A stretch of 64,000 nt of DNA. Source: Phenylobacterium sp. Its GTDB lineage: Bacteria > Pseudomonadota > Alphaproteobacteria > Caulobacterales > Caulobacteraceae. The stretch covers positions 86 through 64,085 of the forward strand of contig NZ_JBBKVV010000104.1 in NCBI RefSeq assembly GCF_037968635.1, written 5' to 3'. A program made the translations under genes and the position numbers. Below, piece by piece: positions 1 to 17,413 of the stretch (its first letter is position 1; every line of letters begins with the position of its first letter). Under the pieces are notes generated by a model. It was not told the origin of the DNA. It was given only the letters and a program-made list of their open reading frames with translations, and did no database searches.

Positions 1-1016
1 AACACCGCGGACTCAGATCGCGGTTCGGCTGGCGCGACTGCGGGCGTGGGACGTCTACGCTTGAATTAGGCTTCCGACGCGGCGCGCAGGGACCAGTGCT
101 AGGTGGCTGGTCCCTGAATGTGGGGGAAACTGACAACCGGATTCTTCCTTCTGGGACCAAACAGCTAGGCCGGTTTCGCACTGTAAGAGCCCAAGGGGAG
201 TTGAGAGATAGGATTCCGGGAACGGTCTTCGCCCCGAAGCCGCGAAATATGTGGGGTGTGACTGCCTAACCTAACGCCGCGGCAGTGCAGTTTGGGATGC
301 CCCGTAGCATGCGCCGGATATGCCCTGCCCAAGAATGGTGAGGCAATGAACGTCGAAAAGGGTGGCGGGCGCCGTTCGAGTAAGGCGCCCCGGTGATCTT
401 CTGGATAGCGGTCGGGGGATAGGGATCTAGTTGCGCCGGGAACTCTCAGGCGCGCTCCATTAATCGAGCGACAAAACTATATCGGTCAGCGAGGCAGGTA
501 ACCGCAGCACGGCCCAGAAGACTCACCATTCCAGGTGGAAATCGCAGGGACGTGATGGTGTCGAGGTCGTCCACACCATCACGTCAGCATCGAAAACTTG
601 GCAGGCGCTCTCTTGCGAGCGCTGGGAACTCAACCTAGTGGTGGTCCACGGGCGCTGTGAGATAGGAGCCGACCTAGAGCCGGGGGAATGGTGGAAGTCC
701 GCCATTCGGTTGCGGTCGTCCCCAAGTAGCAGGCCTCTCAGCGAGGGGATTCCAACGCCCGGCCCCACATGAACGCATCCAACAGTTGCGTTCCCAGATC
801 AATTGATTCAGGCTCCTCCTGCCGACGCGTGAGTGTCGGTAGGGGCGTGGAATCCCCTTCGCAGAAATCGAAGCACGTGGTGGCGTCCGAAGGGATGAAA
901 CCATCGACTGCTGGATGTCACGCGCCCCTCGGCGAGAGACAATGCTCTCACGTGGTGGATTCCAGCCAACGGGCCAGTTCGCCCGACGCCCCTCTCACCA
1001 GTTGAGGAGCGGGCCT

Positions 1017-1535
1017 ATGAGCGCGCGTGATGACGTGAAGAAGGGCGCAAGCGCCGCCGAGGATTCGCTGTCCCAGCTTTACCGCAGGTATGCGGGTTGG
1101 TTGGAACGTTTGGTCCGTGGGAAATTTGGGGCCGATGGCGCCGAAGATCTGGTTCAAGAGACCTATCTGCGCGTGCGTGCCTACCAAGCTTCAAACGTGG
1201 TGCGGCATCCCAAGGCCCTGCTACTCCGCATCGCGACGAACCTCGCATACGATCGAGCGCGACGCGCCAAGGTGCGTGTCGGCCGCGGCGTGACATCGCT
1301 TGAGGAGGCTCGCCACGTTCGCCAACTCGTAAACCAGGCCGAACAGGTCGAAGCTCTGCTGCTCAAGCAGATCGTTCTATCGCTCCCGCCGGCCCAACGA
1401 GACGTTCTTGTTCTCAATCGGTTTGCGAACCTGTCTTACGAAGAGATCGCCTCGCACCTGGGAATTTCGGTGAAAACGGTAGAGTGGCGCATGTCCAAAG
1501 CCCTGGCGCACTGCGCCAAGCTCCTGCGCCCATAG
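1017..1535 (+). CDS. ECF RNA polymerase sigma-70 factor (FecI-like)
   Basis: Region 2 'AEDLVQETYLR' and region 4 'LPPAQRDVLVLNRFANLSYEEIASHLGISVKTVEWRMSKAL'. GAGGAG upstream of ATG 1017; the track ORF starts earlier at 915. Confidence 0.9.
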   Translation: MSARDDVKKGASAAEDSLSQLYRRYAGWLERLVRGKFGADGAEDLVQETYLRVRAYQASNVVRHPKALLLRIATNLAYDRARRAKVRVGRGVTSLEEARHVRQLVNQAEQVEALLLKQIVLSLPPAQRDVLVLNRFANLSYEEIASHLGISVKTVEWRMSKALAHCAKLLRP

Positions 1536-1552
1536 GAGCACGTGAAGCGAGC

Positions 1553-4102
1553 TCATCGCTGGCGCTCACGCTCCTGCTCCCGGCCACGAATGCGTTCGCG
1601 TTCTGGAGGGCGCCTCATCTCCCGCTGCAGGTTCTCAATTCCACGCACGGCCCTACCCGTCGCGCCGCGAGCGGCCACCTCGCGCAGTGTCGGATCAATG
1701 CTGAAGGCGGCCGAAATTTCTCTGGAGGATCCAGGCTGCGCTTCTTCGAGCTTCCCGCGGCTGAACTCCAACATCTCTTGAAGCTCAGGCCGTGGCTCCC
1801 GGCCCCTGGATCGCGCCCGGGCGATCTCACCAGAAGCCCTCGCGAACGCCTGCAGTGCGCTTCCAAAACCCCGATCAGAGTTCACGGTCTGACCGTCCCT
1901 GTTGCCGCCAAACCCGAGGTAGTCGGACGCCATGTCCTTTCGCCGTTCGCGACCGAGACTGCTCGCAAGCTGCTCGTCGGAGGAAAAATCCTGTCGGCTG
2001 TAGTGCAGGGAGACTGACTGGCGGTGGCGCGAGAGCGCCACGTAGGCGGCATGGCTGTCCATGTGCTCTGTGGCGAGGACATAGCTGCGATCGACCGTGA
2101 CCCCCTGCGCCTTGTGAACGGTGGCCGCGTAGCCGTGATCAAGATCGGCGTAGTCCTTGAAGTCGAACGTGACGGACCGACCATCGTGGAGGCGCACAGT
2201 CGCACCTGACTTGGTTAGCTCGATAAGGTCACCCAAGGCCCCGTTCTTCACTCCGAGTGACCGCTCATTTCGCAGGAACATCACGCGGTCCCCCTGCGCC
2301 ATCATCCGCTCGCCGTGCACGGTCTCGACAGGCAGATCTTCGCCAAGACCGCCCATTCCTCGCACCTGCGCTCGCGCGAGTTGGTTGAGAGCCGCGACAT
2401 CCTTCCGAGTGTAGGTGAGGATCATCTGAGAGCTGTTGGAATCTTCCCGTCGATCTCGTGCCCAGCCGGCGATCAGGGAGGTACGCGCGTCGGCTATCTC
2501 GTCATGCGCATGGACAGCGTCAGCCTCCGCATAGCGCGCCAGCGCGACGTCAGTACGACCGGTTGCAAGCTCGCGGGTGGCCTGCCTCTGCCAATCGTCC
2601 CGCTGCCGTCGAACCTGGGTGATCTCGACTGCGCCATGACGCTCGGCTAGCGCCCGAAATGCAGCTCCGGCCTCGATGGCCTGCAGCTGCTGCGGGTCGC
2701 CAACAAGGACGACCTTCGCGCCGGCATCGCGCGCCTCGCCGAGCACACGCTGCATCTGCCGTGAACCGACAAGACCTGCCTCGTCGACCACGAGTATGTC
2801 CTTGTCGGTCAGCAATTCGCGACCTCGCGCCCAAGCGTGCTCAAGACTCGCGAGTGTCCTTGAGTTGATACCCGACCCCGTCTCCAGGCTCTCCGCCGCG
2901 ATACCTGAGAGGGCGCCTCCAAGGACCTTGTAGCCCTCCCCTTCCCAGGCGCGCCGAGCCACGGCGAGCATGCTGCTCTTGCCCGAACCCGCGTACCCCA
3001 CGACCAAGGCGAGATCGGTGTCGCCCGTGACATGGCGTAGGGCGGAGGCCTGTTCGGCAGAGAGAGTCAGCCCTCGGCCTTCCGAGTACCGAGCAGCCTC
3101 CCTCGCAATGGCGGGCGAAACACGATGCCCATTGCGGACGTCCAAGTCCGCTGCCGACGTCTCCAATTGCGCTTCGACCTCGACCATCTCTCGCGTCGTG
3201 AAGCGTTCCTGTCCGGCTCCATCGCGCCCGAGGTAGCCCAGGTCGGGCGCGCTCCAGACAGCGGCAAGCGCCCGGTCGAACTGGGCTTTGTCATCCGTGT
3301 GCCGGTGGATGAACCGTGACACGTCCTGCCGCGTGAAGGTGGCTTGGTGATGGGTGATCGCCTCCAATGCGATGCTCGGCTCTGCGATGATCCTCTCGCC
3401 GTTTCGCCTGGCGATTTCGCGATGATCTTGCGCCCGCTCGGCGTCCTCCCCTCTCCCCTCTCGACGGGATCCCGCGGCGCCGATTTTATGCTGCGGCTCA
3501 AGGTCAATTCCCTGCGCCTCCAACGACCTGTGATCGACACGGGCATTGATATCGAGCTCAGCCAGTCGCCGGTTGAGGTGGCCTTCCCAGGCCTCCCGCC
3601 AGTGTTCCAAAAGCTCTGTCTGGTTCCAGGCGCGAACCTTTGCGCCGAAACCGTCAGGCGTTGCCTCCCGCATGGCTAGCATCACATGCGCATGCGGTCT
3701 GGCTTCGCCATCCGCACCAATGTCCCAGTGCACGTTGAGGTCGGCCACCATGCCGCGATGGACAATTTCGTTTTGTACGAAGTCGCGCGCCAGGCCGACG
3801 GCGTCGGCCTGGCCAATCTCCCGCGGCAGGGCGAACTCTACCTCGCGGGCAAGCTGGGCATCCTTGCGCTTCTCCGCGACCTCGACCTCGTTCCACAGCG
3901 TCGCGCGGTCTGCCCATCGCTCCGGCGCGCCGTCGGGCGTCAGGATCTCCGAATGAACGACGCCGGCCTTGTTGGTGAAGTCGTGCGCGCGATCGAGCCG
4001 GTCATCATGCAGACGAGAGGCGGCGCGGTAGGCCGCCGCAGCCACGGCGCTCGAGCCTTTGGCCCGGCTGATGACTTTGGCGGAGAAGTGGTAGATCGCC
4101 AT
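1553..4102 (-). CDS. traA: Ti-type conjugative relaxase/helicase TraA (MobA/MobL MOBQ relaxase + RecD-like helicase)
   Basis: N-term 'MAIYHFSAKVISR...AAAAYRA', HUH 'PHAHVML'; helicase Walker A 'GYAGSGKS', 'VVDEAG', 'HGYAATVHKAQG'. Confidence 0.95.
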   Translation of the reverse strand: MAIYHFSAKVISRAKGSSAVAAAAYRAASRLHDDRLDRAHDFTNKAGVVHSEILTPDGAPERWADRATLWNEVEVAEKRKDAQLAREVEFALPREIGQADAVGLARDFVQNEIVHRGMVADLNVHWDIGADGEARPHAHVMLAMREATPDGFGAKVRAWNQTELLEHWREAWEGHLNRRLAELDINARVDHRSLEAQGIDLEPQHKIGAAGSRREGRGEDAERAQDHREIARRNGERIIAEPSIALEAITHHQATFTRQDVSRFIHRHTDDKAQFDRALAAVWSAPDLGYLGRDGAGQERFTTREMVEVEAQLETSAADLDVRNGHRVSPAIAREAARYSEGRGLTLSAEQASALRHVTGDTDLALVVGYAGSGKSSMLAVARRAWEGEGYKVLGGALSGIAAESLETGSGINSRTLASLEHAWARGRELLTDKDILVVDEAGLVGSRQMQRVLGEARDAGAKVVLVGDPQQLQAIEAGAAFRALAERHGAVEITQVRRQRDDWQRQATRELATGRTDVALARYAEADAVHAHDEIADARTSLIAGWARDRREDSNSSQMILTYTRKDVAALNQLARAQVRGMGGLGEDLPVETVHGERMMAQGDRVMFLRNERSLGVKNGALGDLIELTKSGATVRLHDGRSVTFDFKDYADLDHGYAATVHKAQGVTVDRSYVLATEHMDSHAAYVALSRHRQSVSLHYSRQDFSSDEQLASSLGRERRKDMASDYLGFGGNRDGQTVNSDRGFGSALQAFARASGEIARARSRGREPRPELQEMLEFSRGKLEEAQPGSSREISAAFSIDPTLREVAARGATGRAVRGIENLQREMRRPPERERIRGREQERERQR

Positions 4103-4135
4103 CCCGGCGCTCCCCGCAGGTTGATCTTAAAGCGA

Positions 4136-4184
4136 CGTCGGCACGACGTATAAGCGCGCCCTCCCGACTTTCGGTCGGTCGGGA
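4136..4184 (+). other. oriT with MOBQ-type nic site
   Basis: ACGTATAAGCGCG^CCCT at 4146-4162 matches the RSF1010/pSC101/pTi-type nic core TAAxTGCG^CCCT. Flanking inverted repeats are CGTCG/CGACG (4136-4148) and TCCCGAC/GTCGGGA (4162-4184). It lies between divergent traA and traC/D. Confidence 0.8.
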
Positions 4185-4292
4185 TTTTCAGGGAATACGC
4201 AGTCCTACCCGGTCAGAGCCCGTAGCCTTACGCGTCGCGCGCTAGGCGAGAGCGCGCGAAACTCTTCCGCATGCACAGCTGCGGAGTTGGCC

Positions 4293-4595
4293 ATGCGAAA
4301 ACCTCGAGACATAGATGCCGAGCTGCAGGCTCTGGCCGAACGGGCCAAGGGCCTGAAGAGCCGCAAGGTGAGCCAGCTGGGGGAACTGGCGATCGCCACC
4401 GGAGCCGACGCTCTGTCGGTTGAAGTGTTGGCCGGCGCCCTACTCGCGGCGGCCAAGACCCGTGATGAGACCGCGATCACCACGTGGCGCCGACAGGGAG
4501 AAGCCTTCTTTCGGCGGACGGCCACACGTCGCGTTGGGGCGGGCGCTGGCCAGGACACTGACAGCGCTACGCCGCACCCTGGCTCAGAAACATAG
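4293..4595 (+). CDS. Relaxosome accessory protein, TraC/TraD-like
   Basis: 'MRKPRDIDAELQALAERAKGLKSRKVSQLGELAIATGADAL', divergent from traA in the pTi-like traCDG arrangement. Confidence 0.75.
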   Translation: MRKPRDIDAELQALAERAKGLKSRKVSQLGELAIATGADALSVEVLAGALLAAAKTRDETAITTWRRQGEAFFRRTATRRVGAGAGQDTDSATPHPGSET

Positions 4596-4635
4596 AGCTG
4601 AAGCCTTGCAGGCCAGAACTGAGACAAGGACCTGG

Positions 4636-4878
4636 ATGGCGGCGCGGCGCGAACGAACACGCCATCTGATCGAACTCGGCGGCTTGGTGCAGAAGGCGGG
4701 ACTGGTCGAACTCACGGACGACGACCGCGCCGTATTGCTTGGCGCATTCCTAGCTGTCGCCCAGATGTTGTCAGGGGAGCAGAGACAGGCGGCCTTGGCC
4801 AACTGGCGCCACTCTGGCCGGCGGGCGTTTCAGGCTCACGCCATGGCGGTTGCCGAGCGAGATCGGACCGAGCCATGA
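4636..4878 (+). CDS. traD: Conjugal transfer protein TraD-like
   Basis: 'RRERTRHLIELGGLVQKAGL' resembles the pTi TraD motif. ATGA overlap with traG. Start uncertain. Confidence 0.75.
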   Translation: MAARRERTRHLIELGGLVQKAGLVELTDDDRAVLLGAFLAVAQMLSGEQRQAALANWRHSGRRAFQAHAMAVAERDRTEP

Positions 4879-6446
4879 AGTACTTGCGACTAGCCGTTTG
4901 GCTGATCGTCGGCTTCTTCGGTGGAAGCCTGCTCATGAACATCGCGCTCTATGCGGCGCGGTTCGCTGGACACCCCATTTGGCCAGCCTGGCTGCTTCCG
5001 CTCCAGGTGGCCGGAGAGGTTCTCGGCGCATTCTCTGGCTATCTTTGGTGGCGGTTCAAGAACCGACCGCTTCGGTCGGACGTCCATGGTTCGGCGCACT
5101 TTCAAGGCGCCAAGATCACCAGGGCCACCCTCGGGGTGAGTCGCGGCCTCATTGTCGGTCGCGACAGACGCGGGGAACTTTTGCGTTACGACGGACCCGC
5201 GCACCTGCTGACAATTGCACCGACCCGATCTGGCAAGGGCGTCGGCGCGATCATCCCGAACTTGCTCACGACGGACTACTCGATCCTTTGCATCGATCCG
5301 AAAGGCGAGAACGCCCGCATCACGGCTCGCGCACGTGCGTTGCGCGGCCCAGTGCATGTCCTCGATCCGTTTGGAATCTCGGGTGAGCCCTGCGCGGCGT
5401 TCAATCCACTGAGCCGGTTGGACCCGGCCGGTGTCGACCTAGCGGAAGACGCGGCAATGATCGCCGATGCTTTGGTCTACGACCCGCCCGGCCAGGTGAG
5501 TGAGGCGCACTGGAACGAGGAGGCCCGCGCGCTCATCGCCGGGCTCATTCTCCACATTGTGACGAACCGATCTCCCGCCCACCGGTCGCTTGCAGCGGTT
5601 CGCGCCCTCCTCACTACCACGCCTGAGAAGTTCGATCAGGCGCTCTTTGACATGCAAGGTAGCTACGCTGCTCGCGGTCTCGTGGCCCGCGCCGCCAACC
5701 GGCATCTCAGCAAGAGTGAACGTGAGGGCGCGGGCGTTCTGTCGGCCGCTCAGAGGCACACCCACTTCCTCGACAGCCCGCGCATGGTACGGGTGCTGCA
5801 GAAGTCCGACTTTGCTTTTAGCGATCTCAAGCGAGGGCCAACCAGCGTCTTCCTGGTGCTGCCACCGGAGCGCCTGGCGACGCATGCTCGCTGGCTGCGG
5901 CTGTTGGTAGTCCAGGCGATCGGTGAGTTGGCGCAGACGCAGGCGAAGGATGCGCCACCACCGCATCCCGTTCTGATGATGCTTGACGAGTTTGCGGCGT
6001 TGGGACGCGTCGAACCTGTCGAGCGTGCCTTCGCACTGATGGCCGGCTACGGCCTGCAACTCTGGGCGATCCTGCAGGACCTCCATCAATTGAAGGGCCT
6101 GTACGGAGAACAGGCTGGAAGTTTCCTATCCAACGCTGGCCTGATCCAGGTCTTCAATGTCGCTGACATCGACACCGCGACCTGGGTGTCCCGCACCCTT
6201 GGCGCAGCGACGGAAGTGTTCAACACGATGTCGTGGGCGGAACGGCCGGAGTCCCGACCTTGGTGGCGGTCTTACACGCCCACAACGACGCTCAACCTCA
6301 GTCGCCGAGACCTCATGACGCCCGACGAGGTGATGCGTCTGGGTCAGGAAGAGTTGCTACTCCTGCGCCCTGGCATGTCGCCCGTGGTGGCGCAGAAGGT
6401 TCGCTACTATCGGGACCAGCAGTTTGCGGGCCTCTTCGATGCATAG
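4875..6446 (+). CDS. traG: Type IV coupling protein TraG/VirD4
   Basis: N-terminal TM segments, Walker A 'APTRSGKG', 'IDPKGE', Walker B 'MMLDEFAALG', 'ILQDLHQL', 'LMTPDEV'. Confidence 0.93.
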   Translation: MKYLRLAVWLIVGFFGGSLLMNIALYAARFAGHPIWPAWLLPLQVAGEVLGAFSGYLWWRFKNRPLRSDVHGSAHFQGAKITRATLGVSRGLIVGRDRRGELLRYDGPAHLLTIAPTRSGKGVGAIIPNLLTTDYSILCIDPKGENARITARARALRGPVHVLDPFGISGEPCAAFNPLSRLDPAGVDLAEDAAMIADALVYDPPGQVSEAHWNEEARALIAGLILHIVTNRSPAHRSLAAVRALLTTTPEKFDQALFDMQGSYAARGLVARAANRHLSKSEREGAGVLSAAQRHTHFLDSPRMVRVLQKSDFAFSDLKRGPTSVFLVLPPERLATHARWLRLLVVQAIGELAQTQAKDAPPPHPVLMMLDEFAALGRVEPVERAFALMAGYGLQLWAILQDLHQLKGLYGEQAGSFLSNAGLIQVFNVADIDTATWVSRTLGAATEVFNTMSWAERPESRPWWRSYTPTTTLNLSRRDLMTPDEVMRLGQEELLLLRPGMSPVVAQKVRYYRDQQFAGLFDA

Positions 6447-6522
6447 TCGGACTGACGACCGCAACTCGCGATTGGACCGGGAGCAGCTTGTCACCTCCCC
6501 CGGCTCAGGCGACATACATGAG

Positions 6523-7443
6523 ATGAAGACCAGTCTGGATCACCTACCGGCGGGCAAGCGACGCGAGCTCGAACTCGTCGTGGAGATCCTGGCGGCATCA
6601 TTTGCAAAGGCAGTTGCGGATCGAAAGGTCGACCGTCTGAAGAACGGCAAGATCCTGAAAATCATCCTATTTGGATCGTATGCTCGCGGGGACTGGGTCG
6701 AGGATCCGGTCGGACGTTACTTCTCTGACTTTGACTTACTCGTGGTGGTGGACGACGACGATCTAGCCGACACGGTTGAGTTCTGGGATATCGCTGAGGC
6801 TCGCCTGCTTAAGGAGCTGTCGGCTGGCAAAGTCCTTCGGACACCGGTCAACTTCATCGTCCACAGCCTGCAGGATGTGAACCACCAGCTTGAGCGTGGT
6901 CGCTACTTCTTCGTCGATATCGTCCGCGACGGCGTCCTGCTGCTTGACGTCCCAGGTCACCCTCTCACCACTCCGAAGGATCTGGCCCCAGCAACGGCGC
7001 TCGACGAAGCGAAGGGGTATTTCGACCAATGGCTGGAGAGCGCCGCAGACTTCGAGGATCAGGCTACCTACGCGGTTTCGAAAGGTAGGCTCAAAAACGC
7101 AGCCTTCCAAATGCATCAGGCGGCGGAGCATTTCTACAACTGCGTTCTGCTGGTTCTAACCCTCTACACACCAAAGTCCCACAATCTAGTGCGCCTTCGA
7201 AATCTGGCCGAGCCACTTGACCCTCGCCTGATCGCCGTCTGGGCCTTCGACACAAAGTTTGAAAAGCGCTGCTTCGAGTTGTTGCGCGCGGCGTACATCA
7301 AGGCGCGCTACTCGCGGCACTTCAAAGTCACGGCGGACGAGTTGGAGTGGCTCGGTCAGCGGGTGGCAGCGTTAAAGACAGCGGTCACAGCCGTTTGTGA
7401 GGAGCGGTTAGAAGCGTTGGAAACGCAGATCGCTGCCGAATAG
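6523..7443 (+). CDS. Fused minimal nucleotidyltransferase (MNT) + HEPN domain protein
   Basis: 'LFGSYARGDW...SDFDLLVVV' NTase motif followed by HEPN-like 'AAFQMHQAAE...PKSHNL...AYIKARY'. Start taken at MKTSLDHLP. Confidence 0.88.
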   Translation: MKTSLDHLPAGKRRELELVVEILAASFAKAVADRKVDRLKNGKILKIILFGSYARGDWVEDPVGRYFSDFDLLVVVDDDDLADTVEFWDIAEARLLKELSAGKVLRTPVNFIVHSLQDVNHQLERGRYFFVDIVRDGVLLLDVPGHPLTTPKDLAPATALDEAKGYFDQWLESAADFEDQATYAVSKGRLKNAAFQMHQAAEHFYNCVLLVLTLYTPKSHNLVRLRNLAEPLDPRLIAVWAFDTKFEKRCFELLRAAYIKARYSRHFKVTADELEWLGQRVAALKTAVTAVCEERLEALETQIAAE

Positions 7444-10714: not shown

Positions 10715-10871
10715 GGTCTAGGCGTCTCCTCCCGCGGCGACTCAGCCTGCGGTGCCCGGCATCTTGGCAAGCTCAGAGGTTTTCGTCCCAAACGGCCGGC
10801 GCGGCGCTTCAACGGCTAGACCCTTTCAGACGCTGAAGCAGTGAACCCAACCGGACCCAAGCCAACGGGAA

Positions 10872-11138
10872 CTAGAACTGGATGCGGCCGTGGCCGGCGA
10901 CGCCATTGAGCTGTGTCATGAGGAAGCTCAAATCCCCGTCCAAGCCACGAACAAGGACGCCTTCGAATTGAGGTTCATAATGCGCCGCTGGCCCAATGGT
11001 GTGGCCAGGAAATTCGCTCTCTCGGCGGAAGGTCGCGAAGTCCTCGGCGTTGAGGGCAAAGCGATGCGGTGTGTCATGCTCACACCCTCCACATCTATGG
11101 CGATCCGTTGGCGTGCAGCAATGTCGGCTCTGGCTCAA
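10872..11138 (-). CDS. Small hypothetical protein, possibly frameshifted at its 5' end
   Basis: The C-terminal ~65 aa look protein-like. The best RBS+ATG (GGAGG...ATG at 11077) is out of frame with them. Confidence 0.3.
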   Translation of the reverse strand: MSQSRHCCTPTDRHRCGGCEHDTPHRFALNAEDFATFRRESEFPGHTIGPAAHYEPQFEGVLVRGLDGDLSFLMTQLNGVAGHGRIQF

Positions 11139-11290
11139 TCAACGGCGTCTAGATCAGGTTTCGAGACGCGCCTTGCACCGGTTTTCGCTCAGCTTTAGCG
11201 TTGGGCGGGATGCTACGCGGCAGCGTGGGCCGCTCGCGGGCAACGACTAGATCGCGACCGCCCGCCGACCTCGTAATCAAAAGGATCGCC

Positions 11291-13033
11291 GTGCGGATCG
11301 TCAGGGTCGAAATCCAGAACTACCGCGGCATTGGGACGCTCGACTGGCAGCCCTCGCCTGGCATGAACTGCCTGATTGGGCCTGGCGATTCCACCAAGAC
11401 CACAATCCTCGATGCGATCGAGCTGGCCCTCAATCCCCGGTCAAACTATCTGGGCGATGACACCGACTTCCACGATCTCAACTTCGATCTCCCCGTCAGG
11501 GTGACGGTGACTCTGGTCGGCATTCCGGCCGAGTTCTGCATCGATACGCGCTACGGGCTGCATCTGCGCGGCTGGGACGAGACGGCCGCGAAGCTCGTTG
11601 ACGAACCGGGCGATGGGCTGATGGAGGCGTTGTCGGTTCGGGTCGAGATTGATCCATCGACCCTCGAAGGGCGCTGGGCGATCTATAATGATCGCTTGGC
11701 CGAGGACGGCGATCCGCCGTCCTTGCGCTACAAGGATGCGCAGCAGCTGGCGACGACGCGGCTGGGTCCGTACGCCGAGCGGCATCTGGGCTGGGGCCGA
11801 CAATCGATCCTCAATCGCATCGGCGAAGGCGGGCGGATGAGCGAGCAGCTGGCCAGCGCCAGCCGCGCCGCCCGCGCGGCGTTCAAGACCAGCAATAAGG
11901 ACGTGTTCGCCATCCCCACAGCTCGTGCCGAGAAGTTGGGCAAGCACTTCTCGGTCCGGGTTCGGCAGGCCTTTACCGCCGAACTCGATGTCCAAGGCTC
12001 GGCGATCACCTCCGGCGGCGTCGTTCTCCATGACGGCGACCTGCCGCTCCGCACCTTGGGCACCGGGTCTTCGCGGTTGATCGTCTCGGCCCTGCAGCAC
12101 AATGCCGGCGGGTCTCATATCGCCCTGGTCGATGAGATCGAACATGGCCTTGAGCCACACCGCATCGCCCGGCTGCTGAAATATCTCCGCAACCCGCCGG
12201 CGCTGGAGGATGAGGCCGCCAAGGCTGGCACCGCCGCGCCGCAGACCTTCCTGACCACCCATTCCAACGTCGTGATCCGCGAACTCGACGCAGGCGACAT
12301 CCACGCCGTTCGCTCCCATGAGGGCCGAACCCAGGTGCGGTCAGTTGAACAGGCCGCCGCGACCCCGGACATCGCCCAGCGCCAGCTGCGCGCGTCGCCC
12401 GAAGCCTTCCTGGCGAGGCGCATCCTGGTCGGCGAGGGCCGGACGGAATGTGGCCTGTTGCGCGGTCTGGACGCTTGCTGGATCGCGGACGGCAGAGACT
12501 CCTTCGCGCTCCGCGGCGTGGTGGCGATCGACGGCGGCGGCGTCCCTAACGCCGTGACCCTGACCCAGTCCCTGCTCGATTTGGGATACGAGTGCTTGGC
12601 CCTGCTCGACTCCGACAAACCGCCGTCTCAAGAATCCGTGGCCAAGGTCGAAGCGGTTGGCGGCGTGGTCTTGGAATGGGGAGACGACTGCTCGACCGAA
12701 GAGCGCCTCTTCCGTGATGTCCCGTGGGCGACGGTGGACGCTTTGGTGGGGCTGGCAATCCAGTGCAACACCGAAGACAGCGTGCTGGCGACCCTTCGGG
12801 CGACCTGCAAGTCCATGAAGCTCGCCGAACCGGTGGATCTGAGCCTTCCGGTCAGCCTCGATACACCTCAAGTCCGCGCCGCGCTTGGTCTCACCGCGCG
12901 CGAGAAGTCCTGGTTCAAGACCATTCCGCGCGGCGAACGGCTCGCGGCGCTGGTGTATCCGTGCCTGAAGCACATCCCGGCCACACCCTTGGCCAAGCAT
13001 CTGTCTCATCTGCGCGCGTGGGTCGATGGCTGA
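11291..13033 (+). CDS. gajA: OLD-family ATP-dependent endonuclease (ABC ATPase + TOPRIM), GajA-like
   Basis: 'MRIVRVEIQNYRGI', Walker A-like 'GPGDSTKT', signature 'LGTGSSR', Walker B 'LVDEIEHGLEP', H-loop 'LTTHS', TOPRIM 'VGEGRTE...LLDSD'. GTG start at 11291. Confidence 0.85.
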   Translation: MRIVRVEIQNYRGIGTLDWQPSPGMNCLIGPGDSTKTTILDAIELALNPRSNYLGDDTDFHDLNFDLPVRVTVTLVGIPAEFCIDTRYGLHLRGWDETAAKLVDEPGDGLMEALSVRVEIDPSTLEGRWAIYNDRLAEDGDPPSLRYKDAQQLATTRLGPYAERHLGWGRQSILNRIGEGGRMSEQLASASRAARAAFKTSNKDVFAIPTARAEKLGKHFSVRVRQAFTAELDVQGSAITSGGVVLHDGDLPLRTLGTGSSRLIVSALQHNAGGSHIALVDEIEHGLEPHRIARLLKYLRNPPALEDEAAKAGTAAPQTFLTTHSNVVIRELDAGDIHAVRSHEGRTQVRSVEQAAATPDIAQRQLRASPEAFLARRILVGEGRTECGLLRGLDACWIADGRDSFALRGVVAIDGGGVPNAVTLTQSLLDLGYECLALLDSDKPPSQESVAKVEAVGGVVLEWGDDCSTEERLFRDVPWATVDALVGLAIQCNTEDSVLATLRATCKSMKLAEPVDLSLPVSLDTPQVRAALGLTAREKSWFKTIPRGERLAALVYPCLKHIPATPLAKHLSHLRAWVDG

Positions 13034-14471
13034 TCCGCACGTTGACGACCTGGCCGCCAGGATCTGCAGGGTACAGGCCGGGTCGATCGTGGCGGCGGCC
13101 GGCTGCGGCAAGACGGAGCAGATCGTCAACGCCACCGTCCTGAGCCAGGGACGGCGGCTCATCCTCACCCACACCCACGCCGGGGTCGACGCCCTGCGCA
13201 AGCGTATGCGGGAGAAAGGGGTGTCGACCAGCCAGTACGCCATCGACACCATCGCGGGCTGGTGCCTGCGCTACGCGGCCGCCTATCCGCGCCGGTCCGG
13301 GCTGAAAGTGGCCACGCCCAAGGGTGATCAAGACTGGACAGCGGTCTATGCTGGGGCGATCGCGTTGCTGGAGAGCGGTGCTGTCACCCAGGTTTTGAAG
13401 GTCTCCTACTGCGGTGTGTTCGTCGACGAGTACCAGGACTGCGGCGGCGCTCAGCATCAGGTCTTCGCGGCTCTGTCGAAAGTGCTGCCCGTCTGCGTGT
13501 TCGGTGATCCCCTGCAGGCGATCTTTGATTTTGGGCAGACGCCCGTCGATTGGCGCGGCGAGGTGTTTGCGCGGTTTCCCCAGCTTTCGACCCTGACCAA
13601 ACCCTGGCGATGGCATCGGCATGGAAACGCCGAGATGGCCAATTGGCTAGAAACGGTGCGCCCCGTCCTCGAGGCTGGACGCCCGCTGGATCTTGCGGCC
13701 CGACCCGCTTGCGTGACCTGGGAATGGTTGCCTGACCAGGACGGGCCACGCCAATCAAAAATTGTCTCCACCTGCCTCAAGGCGATGAAAGGCGAGGGAA
13801 ACCTGGTGGTGATCGCCGATCCGGCCAACCTCAATGGACGGGCGTTGATCGCCAAGAAGCTCGGCCGACAGGGCTTTTCCAACATCGAGCCCATCGAGTG
13901 CAAGACGGTGTATGCCGCGGCCAAGAGGCTGGCGGCGACCTCGGGGCCAAGGCGCCTGGTCGCGCTCCTGGCGTTCCTCGAGCAATGCATGTCCGGCGTC
14001 GCGAAGGGTGAGTTTCTCAAGGCCGTCGCGTCGCGCAAGGCTGGCGGCAAGCTCGGTAGCGCCAAGTTCGGGGACCTTGTCGAGCTTGGCGTGGCCTTCG
14101 ACCATGGTGCGGATGATGAGGTCTGTCTGGCCTTGGTCGATGGGTTCGCCGCCCAGGCGATGACGGTCGTCTTCCGCCGTGAAATGCTATATTCAATGCG
14201 TTCGGCGCTGAGGATGAAGGTGGCGGGCGATGCCGCAGATCTGTCGGAAGCCTTGTGGCACGTGCAGACGAAGATCCGACACGCGGGTCGGCAGATCCCC
14301 TACTATAGCGTCGGCAGCACGCTCCTGGTGAAGGGGTTGGAGTTTGCCAACGTCGTGGTCATCCACTCGACGAACATGAACAACAAGGACTGGTACGTCG
14401 CCTTGACGCGGGCGACCCACCGGCTGACGATCCTGTCGCCGAAAGCGGTGATCGCTCCAGGGTTCGCGTGA
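13026..14471 (+). CDS. gajB: UvrD/Rep-like SF1 helicase, GajB-like
   Basis: 'AAAGCGKT', 'FVDEYQD', 'FGDPLQAIF', 'VKGLEF', 'YVALTRA'. Overlaps the gajA stop by 8 bp. Confidence 0.85.
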   Translation: MADPHVDDLAARICRVQAGSIVAAAGCGKTEQIVNATVLSQGRRLILTHTHAGVDALRKRMREKGVSTSQYAIDTIAGWCLRYAAAYPRRSGLKVATPKGDQDWTAVYAGAIALLESGAVTQVLKVSYCGVFVDEYQDCGGAQHQVFAALSKVLPVCVFGDPLQAIFDFGQTPVDWRGEVFARFPQLSTLTKPWRWHRHGNAEMANWLETVRPVLEAGRPLDLAARPACVTWEWLPDQDGPRQSKIVSTCLKAMKGEGNLVVIADPANLNGRALIAKKLGRQGFSNIEPIECKTVYAAAKRLAATSGPRRLVALLAFLEQCMSGVAKGEFLKAVASRKAGGKLGSAKFGDLVELGVAFDHGADDEVCLALVDGFAAQAMTVVFRREMLYSMRSALRMKVAGDAADLSEALWHVQTKIRHAGRQIPYYSVGSTLLVKGLEFANVVVIHSTNMNNKDWYVALTRATHRLTILSPKAVIAPGFA

Positions 14472-14505
14472 GCACTTGGCCCATGCGCCTCGAGACCGTG
14501 AGCGC

Positions 14506-15048
14506 CTAGATCTTGGACGACGCCTTCCAGGCGGCGACGAAACTGGGCGTCAGCTCGGCGAGACGGTCTAGGAGAACCTCCAAGGTCATCGGTGGATTCT
14601 TTAGCCGGGCGACCTGCGCGGTCAGAGCGACCGCCAGGGCTTGAGGCGTCTTTTCCAGCAACAGGCAGAGAAAGTCGTCCGGGCTAATGGCGGTCACGCC
14701 GGGCGGCAGCTTGGCGAAGTCCTTAAGGTTGCTGGTGACGATCAGGCTGGCCCCGCCCTGGACCGCGCACGCCGCGACGTGGCGGTCCTTGACGTGGTTG
14801 GGCATGGTGAGGATCAGGGGCTCGTGGCCCTCGACGAAGGCGTCCTCGAACTGAAGATCAAGGGTCGCGCGAAGACGTTTGGCCTTGGGGGCGGTCAGGC
14901 GGCCGTCCGCCACCAGGTTGCGGGTAGCTTCCTCGACGATGAACACGCTCCAGCGCGGCTGAAAACAGCCGGCCGCCGCCGCCGACAGAAGGGTGTCGCG
15001 CAGGGGCAACGGATAAAGGACATCGGCGTCGAGGACAGCGACGATCAC
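14506..15048 (-). CDS. PIN domain protein (PIN_3-like VapC ribonuclease toxin)
   Basis: 'VAVLDADVLY', 'IVEEATRNL', 'KDRHVAACA', 'IVTSNLKDF', 'SPDDFL'. Confidence 0.9.
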   Translation of the reverse strand: MIVAVLDADVLYPLPLRDTLLSAAAAGCFQPRWSVFIVEEATRNLVADGRLTAPKAKRLRATLDLQFEDAFVEGHEPLILTMPNHVKDRHVAACAVQGGASLIVTSNLKDFAKLPPGVTAISPDDFLCLLLEKTPQALAVALTAQVARLKNPPMTLEVLLDRLAELTPSFVAAWKASSKI

Positions 15049-15785
15049 TGGGGTTTGGCCTTTCGGATCAGCGGCCGACGGCCACCAGGCTTCAGGGCCG
15101 TTTCGGAGGGCTTGGACAGGAGCTCTTCGGCGGTCGCGGCGGACTTGGGCCCGGTCTTGGCCTTCTGCGGGTTGGCGAGCATCTGGGCGAGCTTGGACTT
15201 CGGCGCGGGCTTGGCCGTCTTGGGCTCGCGCGAGGCCCGTAGGCTGGCGGCCACGTCGGTGGCACCCAGCTCCTGCGCGCGTTCCACGAAGGCATTGTAG
15301 GTCGCCGCCTGCAGGCCGGCGGCCTTTAGTTTCAAGGCCGGGTCGCCGCTCGGATCAGTCTTGGCCTGGTAGAGCGAGACGATGACCGCGTGCGGGTTGG
15401 GCAGGAAGGCCAGGCCCATGGCGTGCGCCCCGCTGGGCGCGACCTCGACGAAGCCGAGATCGACCAGGCGACGCAGGCGATCCTGGAAGGTTCGGGGCCC
15501 GCGCTGTCCGGCGAACCCAGCCGCGAAGGCCAGGTCCGGCATGCGGCCCAGGCGCACGAAGGCGTTGTCCCAGGTCGCGCACCACAAGGCGACATAGGTG
15601 TCCGACAACGGCTGGCCCTTGGACAGCTCGTCCAGGATCCGGCAGATATAGGGCATGGTCTTGGGCATGGTGGTGAAGCCATGGAAGCGGTTGCGATCCC
15701 ACATCCGCGCCTCGGCGTCAGGGAACAGACTGTCGCGCAGCTCGACGTCGCGATCGCGGATGGCCTTGCCTTTCACGCTCGGCAT
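15045..15785 (-). CDS. Hypothetical protein with probable winged-HTH core and Lys/Pro/Ala-rich tail
   Basis: AAAGGAG RBS before ATG 15785; 'LAFAAGFAGQRGPRTFQDRLRRLVDLGFVEV' is wHTH-like; its stop overlaps the PIN start (GTGA). Confidence 0.7.
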   Translation of the reverse strand: MPSVKGKAIRDRDVELRDSLFPDAEARMWDRNRFHGFTTMPKTMPYICRILDELSKGQPLSDTYVALWCATWDNAFVRLGRMPDLAFAAGFAGQRGPRTFQDRLRRLVDLGFVEVAPSGAHAMGLAFLPNPHAVIVSLYQAKTDPSGDPALKLKAAGLQAATYNAFVERAQELGATDVAASLRASREPKTAKPAPKSKLAQMLANPQKAKTGPKSAATAEELLSKPSETALKPGGRRPLIRKAKPQ

Positions 15786-16101
15786 GGGAGGGCTCCTTTG
15801 AGGCGGACATAAATTCCGCTGATTGGTAGGCTTATAGAATGAAACATCAATAGAGTCAGCGACGTAGATATGCACTCAGCCCATTTAACCTGGCGCATTG
15901 ATGTCAGAAGTGATTGCGAGCTTGTCACATCAAGGGCAACTCGAATGGTGGCCTGGCTTGTTTGTGCCTATCGGGTCGCGTAAGCTACTGATCTAGCACG
16001 GGTAATAGTCTATCCCGATGTGCTGGCGGTGATCGGGTGCTCGGCTGTGCTGACCATGTGCTCCCGGTGCTGACTGGGGGATCGGCCAAGGGGGAGCCTT
16101 G

Positions 16102-16119
16102 GTTGCGTTTGTAGCGTTT
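16102..16119. promoter_or_regulatory. Tandem 9-bp repeat, candidate operator upstream of the excisionase-like HTH gene
   Basis: GTTGCGTTT/GTAGCGTTT directly upstream of ATG 16135, in the divergent intergenic region. Confidence 0.35.
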
Positions 16120-16134
16120 ATACCGCACCTGACG

Positions 16135-16647
16135 ATGATGACCCGCACGACTGCCTCCAGAAAGATCGACAAGCTGGCTCGCCACGCGGTGCCGGCGGTG
16201 CTGTCGTTCGACGATCGCCAGATGGCTGCGCAGCTGTCGGACCTGTTGTTGGGCGCGGCTGGCGGGCCTGGCCGGCTGTGCCTAGCGCGCGGCGATGGCT
16301 ATTCAATCGCACTGTCTCCCGCCTTGGTGAGTGTCCTAGAAACGGTCGCGGAAATGGTGACGGGCGGCGCCAGTGTCACCGTCCTGCCCAGCCACACCGA
16401 GCTGACGACCCAAGAGGCGGCCGACACGCTCAATGTGTCGCGCCAGTACCTCGTGCGCCTGATCGATCGCGGCGACCTGCCCTCCCACAAGGTTGGCGCT
16501 CACCGCCGGGTGCGCGCCGAGGACCTTGCCGCCTATCGTCACCGCCGCGACCAGGCGCGCCGCGAGGCCTTGGATGTTCTGGCCGCCGACGCGCAGGACG
16601 CGGGCGGCTATGACGCGCCGATGAATTTTGGGCCGCGTCGGCGCTGA
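16135..16647 (+). CDS. Excisionase-family (HTH_17/MerR-like) DNA-binding protein, typical PIN_3 antitoxin partner
   Basis: 'LTTQEAADTLNVSRQYLVRLIDRGDLPSHKVGAHRRVRAEDLAAY'. Start 16135 or 16138. Confidence 0.88.
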   Translation: MMTRTTASRKIDKLARHAVPAVLSFDDRQMAAQLSDLLLGAAGGPGRLCLARGDGYSIALSPALVSVLETVAEMVTGGASVTVLPSHTELTTQEAADTLNVSRQYLVRLIDRGDLPSHKVGAHRRVRAEDLAAYRHRRDQARREALDVLAADAQDAGGYDAPMNFGPRRR

Positions 16648-17303
16648 ACGGTGGGTTGCAGTTTCAGGCCCGCTCGGAGAACCAATCGAAGGCGGTGATC
16701 CGGCGGGGAGAGAGACCGTATCGTAGCCGTAGATCTCTTGGGCAAGGCGGGCCAGTTCGGTTTCGCAGTCGGCCTCGGCGAGGTCGATGAACCAGGCCTT
16801 GGGGCGTGCGGCCTTGTGCCGCTCCAGCGATAGCCGCGCGCCCTGAGGCGGTCATTCATCCCGAACGGCGAACCCTCGGCGACGACGCGTCAGGTTGGGC
16901 TAAGCGCCGCGTTCAACATGCGGGCCAGAGCGGTGCGGCCACTGGGCAGGAGGCTGGTCTGGATCAAGGCTAGGCAATCGTTTTGCGCCCGGCGCCGTCG
17001 AAGAAGCACCCGCACTGACTGGCGAGATATCGCCATTGCCGGGAAGCGGACGTTCCCAAGGTCAGCGATGAGCCCTCAGCGGAAGTTGCGTACCTCAGCG
17101 GCAGCTAGATGGCTGAAGCTGTTGGATACTCCGTCGCAACGTCGGAAACGTAGCGCGGAAATCGCGTGGAATGGGCGCTGATGTGGGATCAGGACGCTTT
17201 CAATCGGCCCCCCTAGGGAGAACGAAAGCGAAAGAGAACCGGAACATGAATGCGCTAGATTTGCACCCCAACCCCGACAATTAGTTGATATTACTCAACA
17301 ATC

Positions 17304-17360
17304 TCACCAGTCCATCATGGGGGCAATGGACAAGCGATGGGGGGAAAACGGCACGGGCAT
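17304..17360 (-). pseudogene. dusA: Truncated 5' end of tRNA-dihydrouridine synthase A left at the island attachment site
   Basis: The minus strand reads ATG...MPVPFSPHRLSIAPMMDW-TGA. (S/V)APMMDW is the conserved DusA N-terminal motif. Confidence 0.85.
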
Positions 17361-17413
17361 TGGGTCTCAGGCGGCGAACGAGGGGAGCCGCGCGGGGGCG
17401 GCTCCCGCCCGCC

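What the first reader, a model, noticed from the sequence alone, without database searches (positions are those of the whole stretch)
1..17326. dusA-integrated, MOBQ-mobilisable defence island with at least four stacked defence/TA modules
Seen: relaxase, oriT, traCD, T4CP, then MNT-HEPN, nuclease-STAND, OLD+UvrD and PIN/HTH genes. These end at a truncated dusA start, after which housekeeping genes resume. Known: dusA-associated integrases insert in the 5' end of dusA and restore the gene with a new 5' end. Inference: this is an integrative mobilisable element acting as an anti-phage cargo vehicle. The integrase and restored dusA should lie left of position 1. No mating-pair genes occur in the visible part.
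Basis: partly seen in the sequence, partly recalled or inferred. Interest (0 to 1): 0.8.

Follow-up and report, generated by a model that had tools for sequence, protein, structure and literature searches.

The report
dusA-integrated mobilisable island with defence genes
The window holds the right half of a roughly 41-kb mobile island inserted in the tRNA-modification gene dusA; the island has its own integrase and DNA-transfer genes but no mating pore, and it carries phage-defence, toxin and secretion genes, so it is a well-confirmed but ordinary member of a known class.

Summary

**What the window contains.** Window 1-17,306 carries these features:
- a Ti-type MOBQ relaxase, TraA
- a conserved oriT core
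- two TraD-family genes and a 523-aa coupling protein (T4CP)
- a fused MNT-HEPN protein
- an Mrr-nuclease/STAND protein
- a full Gabija pair (GajA and GajB)
- a PIN operon and an HTH_17 gene

The stretch ends at an 18-codon orphan dusA start (17,360 to 17,307, minus strand).

**The predicted partner.** It lies on another contig of the same assembly, C11. There a tyrosine integrase sits 98 bp from the genome's only intact dusA. That dusA carries the second copy of the 12-bp core inside a 26-bp imperfect direct repeat (23/26).

**Size and extent.** One secreted repeat-protein gene spans the contig break, with a gap of about 1.1 kb judged from an orthologue. The island is therefore about 41 kb and has no mating-pore genes.

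**Helper and relatives.** A separate VirB-type T4SS on contig C24 is a candidate helper. Homologous integrases sit at dusA in about 20% of species in the genus, each with different cargo.

**Verdict.** This is a new member of the known dusA-specific island / integrative mobilisable element class. Only Gabija is an established defence system; the other modules are candidates. Transfer and excision are untested.

The parts
1..69 (+). Last 22 codons plus stop of a secreted Big_9/cadherin/RHS-repeat/Gly-rich protein. The contig holds its last 50 codons, from C104:2. Its N-terminal 623 aa are on contig C11:1870->2, so this gene spans the assembly gap.
   Evidence: The C-terminal fragment matches the C-terminus of the 1036-aa G057 orthologue (49% identity, E 1.4e-12) in the same ORF as the part homologous to C11.
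915..1535 (+). ECF-type sigma factor (island cargo or regulator).
   Evidence: Sigma70_r4_2 2.3e-15, Sigma70_r2 and Sigma70_ECF. A 46% homologue lies in the dusA island of G156.
1553..4102 (-). TraA: Ti-type MOBQ relaxase fused to a RecD-like helicase.
   Evidence: MobA_MobL 4.5e-67 and AAA_30 1.4e-57. TIGR02768 scores 904.6 against a cut-off of 590, and NF041496 MobQ scores 243.9 against 200. H137-A-H and Walker A GYAGSGKS at residue 369 are present.
4132..4165 (+). oriT core: inverted repeat ACGTCG-GCA-CGACGT followed by ATAAGCGCGCCCT.
   Evidence: The block is almost invariant in the TraA/TraD intergenic regions of the Caulobacter plasmid pNIBR24542, Sphingomonas sp. JC676 and two Hephaestia loci, while the flanking sequence is not conserved. 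The nick position is inferred from the RSF1010/pTi type, recalled from memory.
4287..4595 (+).
   Evidence: PF06412 2e-12. Homologues are 63-68% identical next to TraA in L020-L023. The Caulobacter plasmid has the same two-TraD layout.
4420..4878 (+). TraD-family accessory protein 2. The longest ORF is listed; the likely start is the ATG at 4663.
   Evidence: PF06412 5.7e-21 and NF010421 TraD 1.6e-07.
4875..6446 (+). Type IV coupling protein (VirD4/TraG-like), 523 aa.
   Evidence: T4SS-DNA_transf 1.6e-79, TraG-D_C and TrwB_AAD_bind. It falls below all NCBIfam equivalog cut-offs. A 530-aa counterpart sits in the same cassette on pNIBR24542, so the protein is not truncated.
6424..7443 (+). Fused nucleotidyltransferase (MNT)-HEPN protein, with a likely start at the ATG near 6523. 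Candidate toxin-antitoxin-like or defence gene.
   Evidence: HEPN 3.4e-11 and NTP_transf_2 4e-06. PDB 4nqf matches at 1.3e-34 over the HEPN half. Only a weak PADLOC PDC-S09 hit. Homologues of 50-53% identity lie directly beside TraA/TraD in Hephaestia and S. glacialis.
7649..10714 (-). Mrr-like nuclease + STAND NTPase + alpha-solenoid protein (Avs-like), 1021 aa.
   Evidence: - nSTAND5/nSTAND3 weak hits.
- At least 482 homologues of about 1030 aa, named 'nSTAND3 domain-containing NTPase'; one carries PF04471.
- Invariant D48, Q64, C65, (K66), G248-S255 and D297.
- AF2 model with pLDDT 86.8.
- Foldseek matches SAMD9 2.6e-7, EfAvs5 6e-6 and Avs4 1.6e-5.
11201..13033 (+). GajA (OLD-family ATPase-TOPRIM nuclease) of Gabija.
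   Evidence: PADLOC GajA PDLC04168 1.8e-191, full length. AAA_21 and OLD-like TOPRIM domains.
13026..14471 (+). GajB (UvrD-like helicase) of Gabija.
   Evidence: PADLOC GajB PDLC04173 1.7e-152. UvrD-helicase domain. Overlaps gajA by 8 bp.
14506..15048 (-). PIN_3 domain protein (candidate toxin or effector).
   Evidence: PF13470 at 28.7 bits against a cut-off of 27. NF046100 RSP_2648-like at 97 bits, below its cut-off of 170. The homologue in L041 also carries VapC50_C.
15045..15875 (-). Uncharacterised protein co-transcribed with the PIN gene, overlapping it by 4 bp. The likely real start is the ATG at 15785, giving about 246 aa.
   Evidence: No Pfam, NCBIfam or PADLOC hit. 118 homologues, all unnamed, in Alphaproteobacteria. 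The pairing with PIN is conserved in L041.
16099..16647 (+). HTH_17 (excisionase-family DNA-binding domain) protein, divergent from the PIN operon. Likely regulator or antitoxin of that module.
   Evidence: PF12728 1e-13 and TIGR01764 6e-15. In Hephaestia an HTH_17 homologue lies directly upstream of a PIN homologue.
11080..17029 (.). Portable 6-kb block: Gabija + PIN operon + HTH_17 + a 3' remnant of an RNase_T gene (16648-17029).
   Evidence: 89% nucleotide identity over 5,962 bp to NCBI GCA_040384225.1 contig JAWVHC010000685.1, where it sits in a different context.
17260..17266 (-). GTGCAAA heptamer, a candidate integrase arm-type site at the far end of the island.
   Evidence: The whole genome has 77 copies, yet 3 lie within about 500 bp around the att core. 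Copies occupy the equivalent positions in the G016 element.
17307..17332 (-). Junction distal to the integrase: a 26-bp imperfect direct repeat whose perfect 12-bp core is at 17307-17318.
   Evidence: TGTCCATTGCCCCCATGATGGACTGG here against TGTCTATTGCACCTATGATGGACTGG at C11:22651-22676, a 23/26 match.
17304..17360 (-). Orphan native 5' end of dusA: 18 codons (MPVPFSPHRLSIAPMMDW) followed by a TGA supplied by the island.
   Evidence: An equivalent remnant lies at the same chromosomal place in G016.
17414..19564 (-). Chromosomal flank: M13 peptidase, immediately upstream of the native dusA start.
   Evidence: Peptidase_M13_N 1.7e-115. The flank further right is syntenic with G016.

Best explanation
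Window 1-17,306 is the integrase-distal arm of a single island of about 41 kb, inserted by a dusA-associated tyrosine integrase into codon 18 of dusA.

**Integration (shown by sequence).**
- The island supplies a surrogate 5' end, giving dusA the N-terminus ...QNQAHRLSIAPMMDWTD.
- The native 18-codon start is left orphaned at the far junction.
- The two junctions share a 26-bp imperfect direct repeat with a perfect 12-bp core.

**Excision (inferred).** The integrase acts together with the adjacent AlpA-like HTH_17 protein, which is conserved next to this integrase in the genus.

**Transfer (inferred).**
- TraA nicks the conserved oriT at about 4150-4165, assisted by the two TraD-family proteins.
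- The island's own 523-aa coupling protein docks the relaxosome onto a type IV secretion system supplied in trans. A VirB-type system on contig C24 is a candidate.
- The island itself has no mating-pore genes, which makes it an integrative mobilisable element of the 'iMOB' kind.

**Origin of the transfer cassette.** The cassette TraA-oriT-TraD-TraD-T4CP is the one found on small Caulobacter and sphingomonad plasmids.

**Cargo.**
- A complete Gabija system.
- An Avs-like Mrr-STAND protein.
- A fused MNT-HEPN protein.
- An HTH_17/unknown/PIN module.
- On the other arm: RelE/XRE, a T2SS-like cluster, a Sec-dependent Rhs toxin with an RNase A-like tip, and a large cadherin-like protein.
For: **Integration**
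- Integrase, dusA and the second core copy are on C11.
- The integrase R/H-x-x-R/H/Y motifs are present.
- There is one dusA and only two att-like sites in the genome.
- Att repeats of this length and type match those described for dusA-specific islands (PMC4482086).
- GTGCAAA motifs cluster at both ends.

**Contiguity and size**
- The C11 and C104 ends carry the N- and C-terminal parts of one gene, whose G057 orthologue is 1036 aa.

**Relatives**
- Integrase homologues (69-89% identity, single copy) occur in 30 of 150 species of the genus.
- They lie directly upstream of dusA where this was checked.
- They share only the integrase and AlpA with this island.
- The closest relative, G016, has a dusA remnant in the same flank, 149 kb from its integrase and dusA.

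**Transfer module**
-.

**Missing pore and possible helper**
- No VirB4 in the island; the only VirB4 is on C24, within a virB1-B11/virD4 operon.

**Cargo**
- Gabija.
- STAND.
- The other modules.
Against: - No direct evidence of excision or transfer.
- The contig join rests on homology, not on reads.
- The T4CP is below every NCBIfam equivalog cut-off.
- A truncated RNase_T gene (16648-17029) and the mosaic make-up show past rearrangement, so decay is possible.
- No relative has an unoccupied dusA with the same upstream neighbour.
- Compatibility of the C24 T4SS with this relaxosome is unknown.
- Defence activity is untested for every module. Four of the five candidate modules have no strong match in PADLOC.
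Confidence: 0.8

Rival explanations
1. The island is a fossil: a decayed integrative conjugative element (a 'psi-ICE') or a dead mobilisable element. It was integrated by the dusA integrase but can no longer excise or transfer, and it now serves only as a fixed accessory region.
For: - No mating-pore genes.
- A truncated RNase_T gene remnant and mosaic blocks.
- The T4CP is below curated cut-offs.
- No other species representative carries the same element.
- Decaying or incomplete ICEs form a recognised class (PMC10484663).
Against: - The integrase, AlpA-like protein, TraA, both TraD genes and the T4CP are all full-length open frames with catalytic motifs.
- The T4CP has the same length as in the plasmid cassette.
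- The oriT core is intact.
- The att repeats keep a perfect 12-bp core.
Confidence: 0.15
2. The island is a complete, self-transmissible ICE whose mating-pore genes are hidden in the assembly gap, for example the VirB operon of contig C24.
For: - The island is split over two contigs.
- C24 (14 kb) has open genes at both ends and encodes virB1-B11 plus the start of virD4.
- A T4SS-bearing dusA island is reported in Phenylobacterium (PMC4482086).
Against: - The two contig ends carry the two ends of one gene in the right orientation, and an orthologue implies a gap of only about 1.1 kb of Gly-rich repeats.
- C24 has its own coupling protein and its own serine recombinase.
- The open genes at the C24 ends do not fit the open genes at the C11 and C104 ends.
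Confidence: 0.03
3. There is no insertion: the short dusA-like stretch at 17307-17360 is a chance match or an assembly artefact, and the gene cluster is ordinary chromosomal content.
For: The perfect repeat is only 12 bp. With one mismatch allowed, two matches were seen in the window, and 2 of 100 shuffles did as well.
Against: - The stretch encodes 18 in-frame codons ending in the conserved HRLSIAPMMDW, with 23 of 26 nt matching the junction beside the integrase.
- The same remnant lies in the same flank in G016.
- Only two such sites exist in 4.1 Mb.
- The cargo is patchy across the genus.
Confidence: 0.01

Closest known systems
dusA-specific genomic islands with dusA-associated integrases (DAIs; Farrugia et al. 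2015, PMC4482086)
   Same: - A tyrosine integrase lies next to dusA.
- The insertion is in the 5' end of dusA, with an island-supplied replacement 5' end.
- An orphan native 5' end remains at the far junction.
- The imperfect direct repeats are about 26 bp long.
- The cargo is mosaic, and the host is an alphaproteobacterium.
   Different: - The cargo combination here is not among the island functions named in the passages of that paper read here: a plasmid-type TraA/TraD/T4CP cassette, Gabija, Mrr-STAND, a T2SS-like cluster and Rhs.
- Excision is not demonstrated.
- The phylogenetic position of this integrase within the DAI family was not computed.
Integrative mobilisable elements of the iMOB type that carry their own relaxase and coupling protein (reviewed in PMC11389934; classified in PMC10484663)
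   Same: It has an integration module, oriT, a relaxase and a coupling protein but no mating-pore genes. A conjugative T4SS is present elsewhere in the same genome.
   Different: The helper is not identified experimentally. At about 41 kb the element is large and cargo-rich for a mobilisable element.
Ti-plasmid Dtr region (traA / oriT / traCDG) and the small TraA-TraD-TraD-T4CP plasmids of Caulobacter and sphingomonads (e.g. pNIBR24542, NZ_CP114873.1)
   Same: - Divergent traA and traD-traD-T4CP operons lie around a conserved oriT.
- TraA passes the TraA_Ti equivalog model.
- The gene order and the T4CP size (523 against 530 aa) match pNIBR24542.
   Different: - The cassette is integrated in the chromosome by a dusA integrase rather than being replicon-borne.
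- There is no TraC-family (PF07820) protein.
- The T4CP does not reach the TraG-Ti model cut-off (105.8 against 686).
- TraA is only 57-66% identical to its nearest relatives.
Gabija (GajA/GajB)
   Same: The adjacent, overlapping gajA (ATPase-TOPRIM) and gajB (UvrD-like) genes both give full-length PADLOC matches.
   Different: The GajA P-loop reads GPGDSTKT, with Thr where Gly normally precedes Lys. Activity is untested.
Avs / antiviral STAND NTPases (Avs4 8dgf, EfAvs5 9jap) and human SAMD9
   Same: It has the same three-part architecture: an N-terminal effector (here an Mrr-like PD-QxK nuclease), a STAND NTPase and a C-terminal helical-repeat sensor. The best fold matches are to these proteins.
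   Different: - No PADLOC Avs model matches.
- No sequence match in the PDB.
- It belongs to an uncharacterised 'nSTAND3' family of about 1030 aa with at least 482 members.
- Its trigger and activity are unknown.

Membership tests
dusA-specific island / DAI integrase family | Tyrosine recombinase with the R-H-R-H/Y catalytic residues | tested here: met
   Phage_integrase 8.7e-23. Motifs AMRQEE (207), HDLRH (301), GHKD (326) and RRYTH (334) are present.
dusA-specific island / DAI integrase family | Integrase gene adjacent to dusA, with the insertion in the dusA 5' end and an island-derived replacement 5' end | tested here: met
   The integrase at C11:21446-22510(-) lies 98 bp from dusA at 22608-23645(+). 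The orphan native 5' end is at window 17360->17307.
dusA-specific island / DAI integrase family | Semi-conserved imperfect direct repeats (21-28 bp) at both junctions | tested here: met
   A 26-bp repeat matching 23/26 with a 12-bp perfect core. The reference repeat sizes come from PMC4482086.
dusA-specific island / DAI integrase family | Integrase clusters phylogenetically with DAIs (sister to Rci) | not tested
   No reference DAI sequences were fetched. Only homologues within the genus were compared.
dusA-specific island / DAI integrase family | Excision yielding attP and a repaired attB | not testable with these tools
Integrative mobilisable element (IME, iMOB) | Integration module plus relaxase and oriT | tested here: met
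Integrative mobilisable element (IME, iMOB) | Absence of mating-pair-formation genes within the element | tested here: met
   The only VirB4 in the genome is on C24. Both island contigs were annotated without T4SS genes. The gap is about 1.1 kb inside one gene. The contig join is by homology only.
Integrative conjugative element (ICE) | Self-encoded T4SS (VirB4-class ATPase and pore proteins) | tested here: not met
Ti-type Dtr system | TraA_Ti relaxase (TIGR02768) | tested here: met
   904.6 bits against a cut-off of 590.45, covering model positions 1-743 of 751.
Ti-type Dtr system | TraG-Ti coupling protein (TIGR02767) and TraC (PF07820) | tested here: not met
   TraG-Ti scores 105.8 against 686.2. 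The first small ORF hits TraD, not TraC.
Gabija | Adjacent GajA (ATPase + TOPRIM) and GajB (UvrD-like helicase) | tested here: met
   PADLOC 1.8e-191 and 1.7e-152, both full length.
Avs (antiviral STAND) families 1-5 | Match to an Avs family profile | tested here: not met
   No PADLOC family matches, and the PDB sequence search gave nothing.
Avs (antiviral STAND) families 1-5 | Effector - STAND NTPase - repeat sensor architecture | tested here: met
   Invariant nuclease and P-loop residues. AF2 model with pLDDT 86.8. Foldseek hits to SAMD9, Avs5 and Avs4.
Type VII HEPN-MNT toxin-antitoxin (HepT/MntA) | Separate MntA antitoxin and HepT toxin genes matching the family models | tested here: not met
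   Here it is a single fused polypeptide. MntA scores 16.7 bits against a cut-off of 60.
PIN-domain (VapC-like) toxin-antitoxin | PIN toxin preceded by a small cognate antitoxin | tested here: inconclusive
   PIN_3 is just over its cut-off. The upstream partner is an uncharacterised protein of about 246 aa. An HTH_17 gene lies divergent, and HTH_17 directly precedes PIN in Hephaestia.

The most novel reading that the evidence does not exclude
The island may be more than a defence vehicle: a mobilisable 'armoury' joining anti-phage genes to an interbacterial weapon. In this reading, the T2SS-like cluster on its other arm is a dedicated exporter for the neighbouring Sec-signal-bearing Rhs toxin (RNase A-like tip) and the cadherin/Big_9/Gly-rich protein. 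That would be an Rhs delivery route other than T6SS, spread between species by a plasmid-derived relaxase/T4CP cassette fused to a dusA integrase.
Probability: 0.12. Interest if true: 0.6.

Novelty: new member of a known kind. Interest (0 to 1): 0.3.

Why it matters
- It documents, with both junctions, how a plasmid-type mobilisation cassette, a dusA-specific integrase and blocks of defence genes have been assembled into one chromosomal element.
- dusA emerges as a hotspot for unrelated cargo in this genus: about one species in five has a homologous integrase there.
- The island offers testable candidates. These are an uncharacterised family of at least 482 Mrr-STAND proteins, an MNT-HEPN fusion that travels with TraA/TraD modules, and a three-gene HTH_17/unknown/PIN module that moves together with Gabija as a 6-kb block.
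- None of this changes current concepts. It is a useful annotated example rather than a discovery.

Tried and rejected
1. **Empty-site search.** I joined the two flanks and searched 40 relatives. No genome has the M13-peptidase flank contiguous with dusA, and the gene upstream of dusA varies between species. The closest relative's site is occupied, so absence of the island could not be shown at an identical site.
3. **Exact overlap between the contig ends.** None found. The join was inferred from an orthologue instead.
4. **Linkage of TraA to dusA integrases elsewhere.** TraA homologues (at most 66% identity) occur in about 24 of 150 species, but where both genes are present they lie on different contigs or far apart. 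The combination is therefore not a conserved family.
5. **Defence-library matches.** PADLOC gave nothing for the STAND, PIN or 276-aa proteins and only a weak hit for MNT-HEPN. The PDB sequence search for the STAND protein gave nothing.
6. **Rfam on window 1-20,000.** No RNA family.
7. **Earlier findings of the scan.** None for this genome.
8. **The ORF listed at 3-269(+).** I rejected this Arg-rich frame as non-coding. The real coding frame ends at window 69.
9. **The ORF at 7451-7771(+).** It overlaps the STAND gene and has no family hit, so I did not count it as a gene.


Full report
**1. The observation**

- TraA, 1553-4102(-), combines MobA_MobL and AAA_30 domains. It passes the curated TraA_Ti and MobQ models.
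- Two small ORFs between traA and the coupling-protein gene both belong to the TraD family, PF06412.
- The coupling protein, 4875-6446, scores 1.6e-79 on T4SS-DNA_transf.
- 6424-7443 is a single polypeptide with nucleotidyltransferase and HEPN halves.
- 7649-10714(-) is a 1021-aa STAND protein.
- 11201-13033 and 13026-14471 are GajA and GajB, with full-length PADLOC matches of 1.8e-191 and 1.7e-152.
- 14506-15048(-) is a PIN_3 protein. It overlaps an upstream gene of unknown function by 4 bp.
- 16099-16647(+) carries an excisionase-type HTH_17 domain.
- On the minus strand, 17360->17307 reads MPVPFSPHRLSIAPMMDW and is followed by a TGA. This is the conserved start of DusA cut after 18 codons.
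- To the right lie an M13 peptidase, an OYE-type oxidoreductase and a hydrolase.

**2. The prediction**

The window is C104:86-64085 of a 201-contig assembly, so the sequence cannot be extended leftward on that contig. A search of the assembly for the core found one other dusA-context copy, on contig C11.

C11 carries three relevant features:
- a 354-aa tyrosine integrase (21446-22510, minus)
- 98 bp away and divergent, an intact 345-aa dusA
- upstream of the integrase, RelE and XRE genes and an AlpA-like HTH_17 gene

The two junctions share TGTC(T/C)ATTGC(A/C)CC(T/C)ATGATGGACTGG. That is 26 bp with 23 matches and a perfect 12-bp end. On the integrase side the repeat continues into chromosomal dusA. 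On the window side it runs into island sequence.

The genome has no other dusA (the next paralogue is 31% identical) and no third att-like site. The rare heptamer GTGCAAA has 77 copies in 4.1 Mb, yet three copies lie within about 500 bp of the core. It recurs at the same positions in the element of relative G016, so these are probably integrase arm sites. All of this matches the description of dusA-specific islands in PMC4482086.

**3. Extent of the island**

The first gene on C11 (1870->2, minus) encodes a Sec-signal protein with RHS, F5/8-C and Big_9/cadherin repeats, and it runs off the contig. C104 begins with the last 50 codons of a Gly-rich protein in the matching orientation.

In genome G057 the orthologue is one 1036-aa ORF. 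Its N-terminal 620 aa match the C11 piece at 55-56% identity, and its C-terminus matches the C104 piece (49% identity, E 1.4e-12). The two contigs therefore abut, with about 1.1 kb of Gly-rich repeat missing.

The island is about 22.7 + 1.1 + 17.3 = 41 kb. It contains no type IV secretion genes. The genome's only VirB4 is on contig C24. C24 carries virB1, B2, B4, B5, B6, B9, B10 and B11, the start of a virD4, an AbiE pair and a serine recombinase. It is a separate conjugative element and a candidate helper.

**4. The transfer module**

The 27.7-kb Caulobacter plasmid pNIBR24542 has the same cassette: traA divergent from traD-traD and a 530-aa coupling protein. The 523-aa T4CP here is therefore full length for its type.

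I aligned the traA/traD intergenic regions from this island, that plasmid, Sphingomonas sp. JC676, S. glacialis and two Hephaestia loci. A 34-nt block stands out: an inverted repeat ACGTCG-N3-CGACGT followed by ATAAGCGCGCCCT. It is almost invariant in five of the six sequences, while the surrounding sequence and the proteins have diverged to 57-63% identity. This block is the oriT core. The nick position after GCGCCCT is my inference from the RSF1010/pTi type, recalled from memory.

**5. The cargo**

*Gabija.* The pair is complete. The GajA P-loop is unusual: GPGDSTKT.

*The STAND protein.* It belongs to a family of at least 482 proteins of about 1030 aa, mostly unnamed; NCBI calls some 'nSTAND3 domain-containing NTPase'.
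- Forty aligned members keep D48, Q64-C65-(K66), the Walker A motif G248-S255 and D297. This indicates an Mrr-like nuclease head and an active NTPase.
- The AlphaFold model has pLDDT 86.8.
- Its best PDB neighbours are SAMD9, EfAvs5 and Avs4. After those come armadillo/HEAT solenoids for the C-terminal half.
- It works like an Avs protein by architecture, but it matches no Avs profile.

*MNT-HEPN.* The fusion has 50-53% homologues directly beside TraA/TraD in Hephaestia and S. glacialis. It may belong to the backbone of this mobilisation cassette rather than being free cargo.

*The 6-kb block.* Window 11080-17029 covers Gabija, PIN, its 246-aa partner, HTH_17 and a truncated RNase_T gene. It is 89% identical at the nucleotide level to a stretch of an unrelated contig in GCA_040384225.1. 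This 6-kb block therefore moves as a unit.

**6. Relatives**

- Integrase homologues (69-89% identity) occur once per genome in 30 of 150 species of the genus.
- Eleven near relatives were checked. In four the integrase lies directly upstream of dusA, one has a remnant, and six have no integrase there.
- Where I looked, the related elements share only the integrase and AlpA with this island.
- The closest relative, G016 (dusA 92% nucleotide identity), shares the right-hand flank. It has its own dusA remnant at the same place, 149 kb from its integrase and dusA.
- The site is thus a recurrent target, but an identical empty site was not found.

**7. Mechanism and verdict**

Shown by sequence: site-specific insertion into dusA with gene repair, intact recombination and relaxosome genes, a conserved oriT, absence of a mating pore, and a T4SS elsewhere in the genome.

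Inferred: excision by the integrase plus AlpA, nicking by TraA, docking through the island's own coupling protein onto a helper T4SS, and anti-phage function of the cargo. Mobilisable elements that carry their own relaxase and coupling protein are well known (PMC11389934). Roughly 20% of IMEs carry a defence system (PMC10484663).

The finding is correct and well delimited, but it is a new member of a known kind.

Excision and the contig join therefore remain untested by reads.

Noticed in passing
contig C11:1-19436 of the same genome (loci L001, L002), outside the window: The other arm of the island holds a T2SS-like cluster with a secretin, GspG, a prepilin peptidase, GspE, GspF and a GspM-like protein. 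Beside it lie a 2214-aa Rhs protein and the Big_9/cadherin/Gly-rich protein. The Rhs protein has a Sec signal peptide, an RNase A-like CdiA-CT tip and a 104-aa downstream ORF. The cadherin-like gene sits next to the T2SS genes in six other species, and the Rhs gene is present in about half of them. Secretin orthologues occur in only about 7 of 150 species.
   Followed up: partly
window 11201-13033 (GajA residues ~60-67): The GajA P-loop reads GPGDSTKT, with Thr in place of the usual Gly before the Lys. The protein still gives a full-length match to a PADLOC GajA model.
   Followed up: no
window 6424-7443; L022:3328-4227; L023:7956-8849: The fused MNT-HEPN gene recurs at 50-53% identity directly beside TraA/TraD modules in Hephaestia mangrovi and Sphingomonas glacialis, where no coupling-protein gene lies between. 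This suggests a link with the mobilisation cassette itself.
   Followed up: partly
contig C24 of the same genome (L048): A 14-kb contig carries a VirB-type T4SS operon, the start of a virD4, an AbiEii/DUF6088 pair and a serine recombinase. It is probably a separate conjugative element. A further T4CP homologue lies on C88.
   Followed up: partly
G016:C1:216185-365754 (L015, L016); G004:C109:56203-117123 (L017, L018): In two relatives the dusA remnant and the intact dusA lie 149 kb and 60 kb apart. These are much larger insertions, or tandem ones, at the same site, sharing only the integrase and AlpA with this island.
   Followed up: partly
window 17414-19564 vs L015:14171-16090: The gene immediately upstream of the native dusA start is an M13 peptidase here. 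In the otherwise syntenic closest relative it is an unrelated ORF of about 640 aa. The genome also has several M13 peptidase paralogues.
   Followed up: no
window 16648-17029: A 3' remnant of an RNase_T (DEDDh exonuclease) gene, recognisable only by 89% nucleotide identity to an intact gene in GCA_040384225.1. It marks the edge of the 6-kb Gabija/PIN block.
   Followed up: partly
contig C95:4021-4719 of the same genome: A second RelE/XRE pair, 54% and 70% identical to the pair beside the integrase. Homologues of this pair also lie next to dusA integrases or their remnants in relatives G014 and G021.
   Followed up: no
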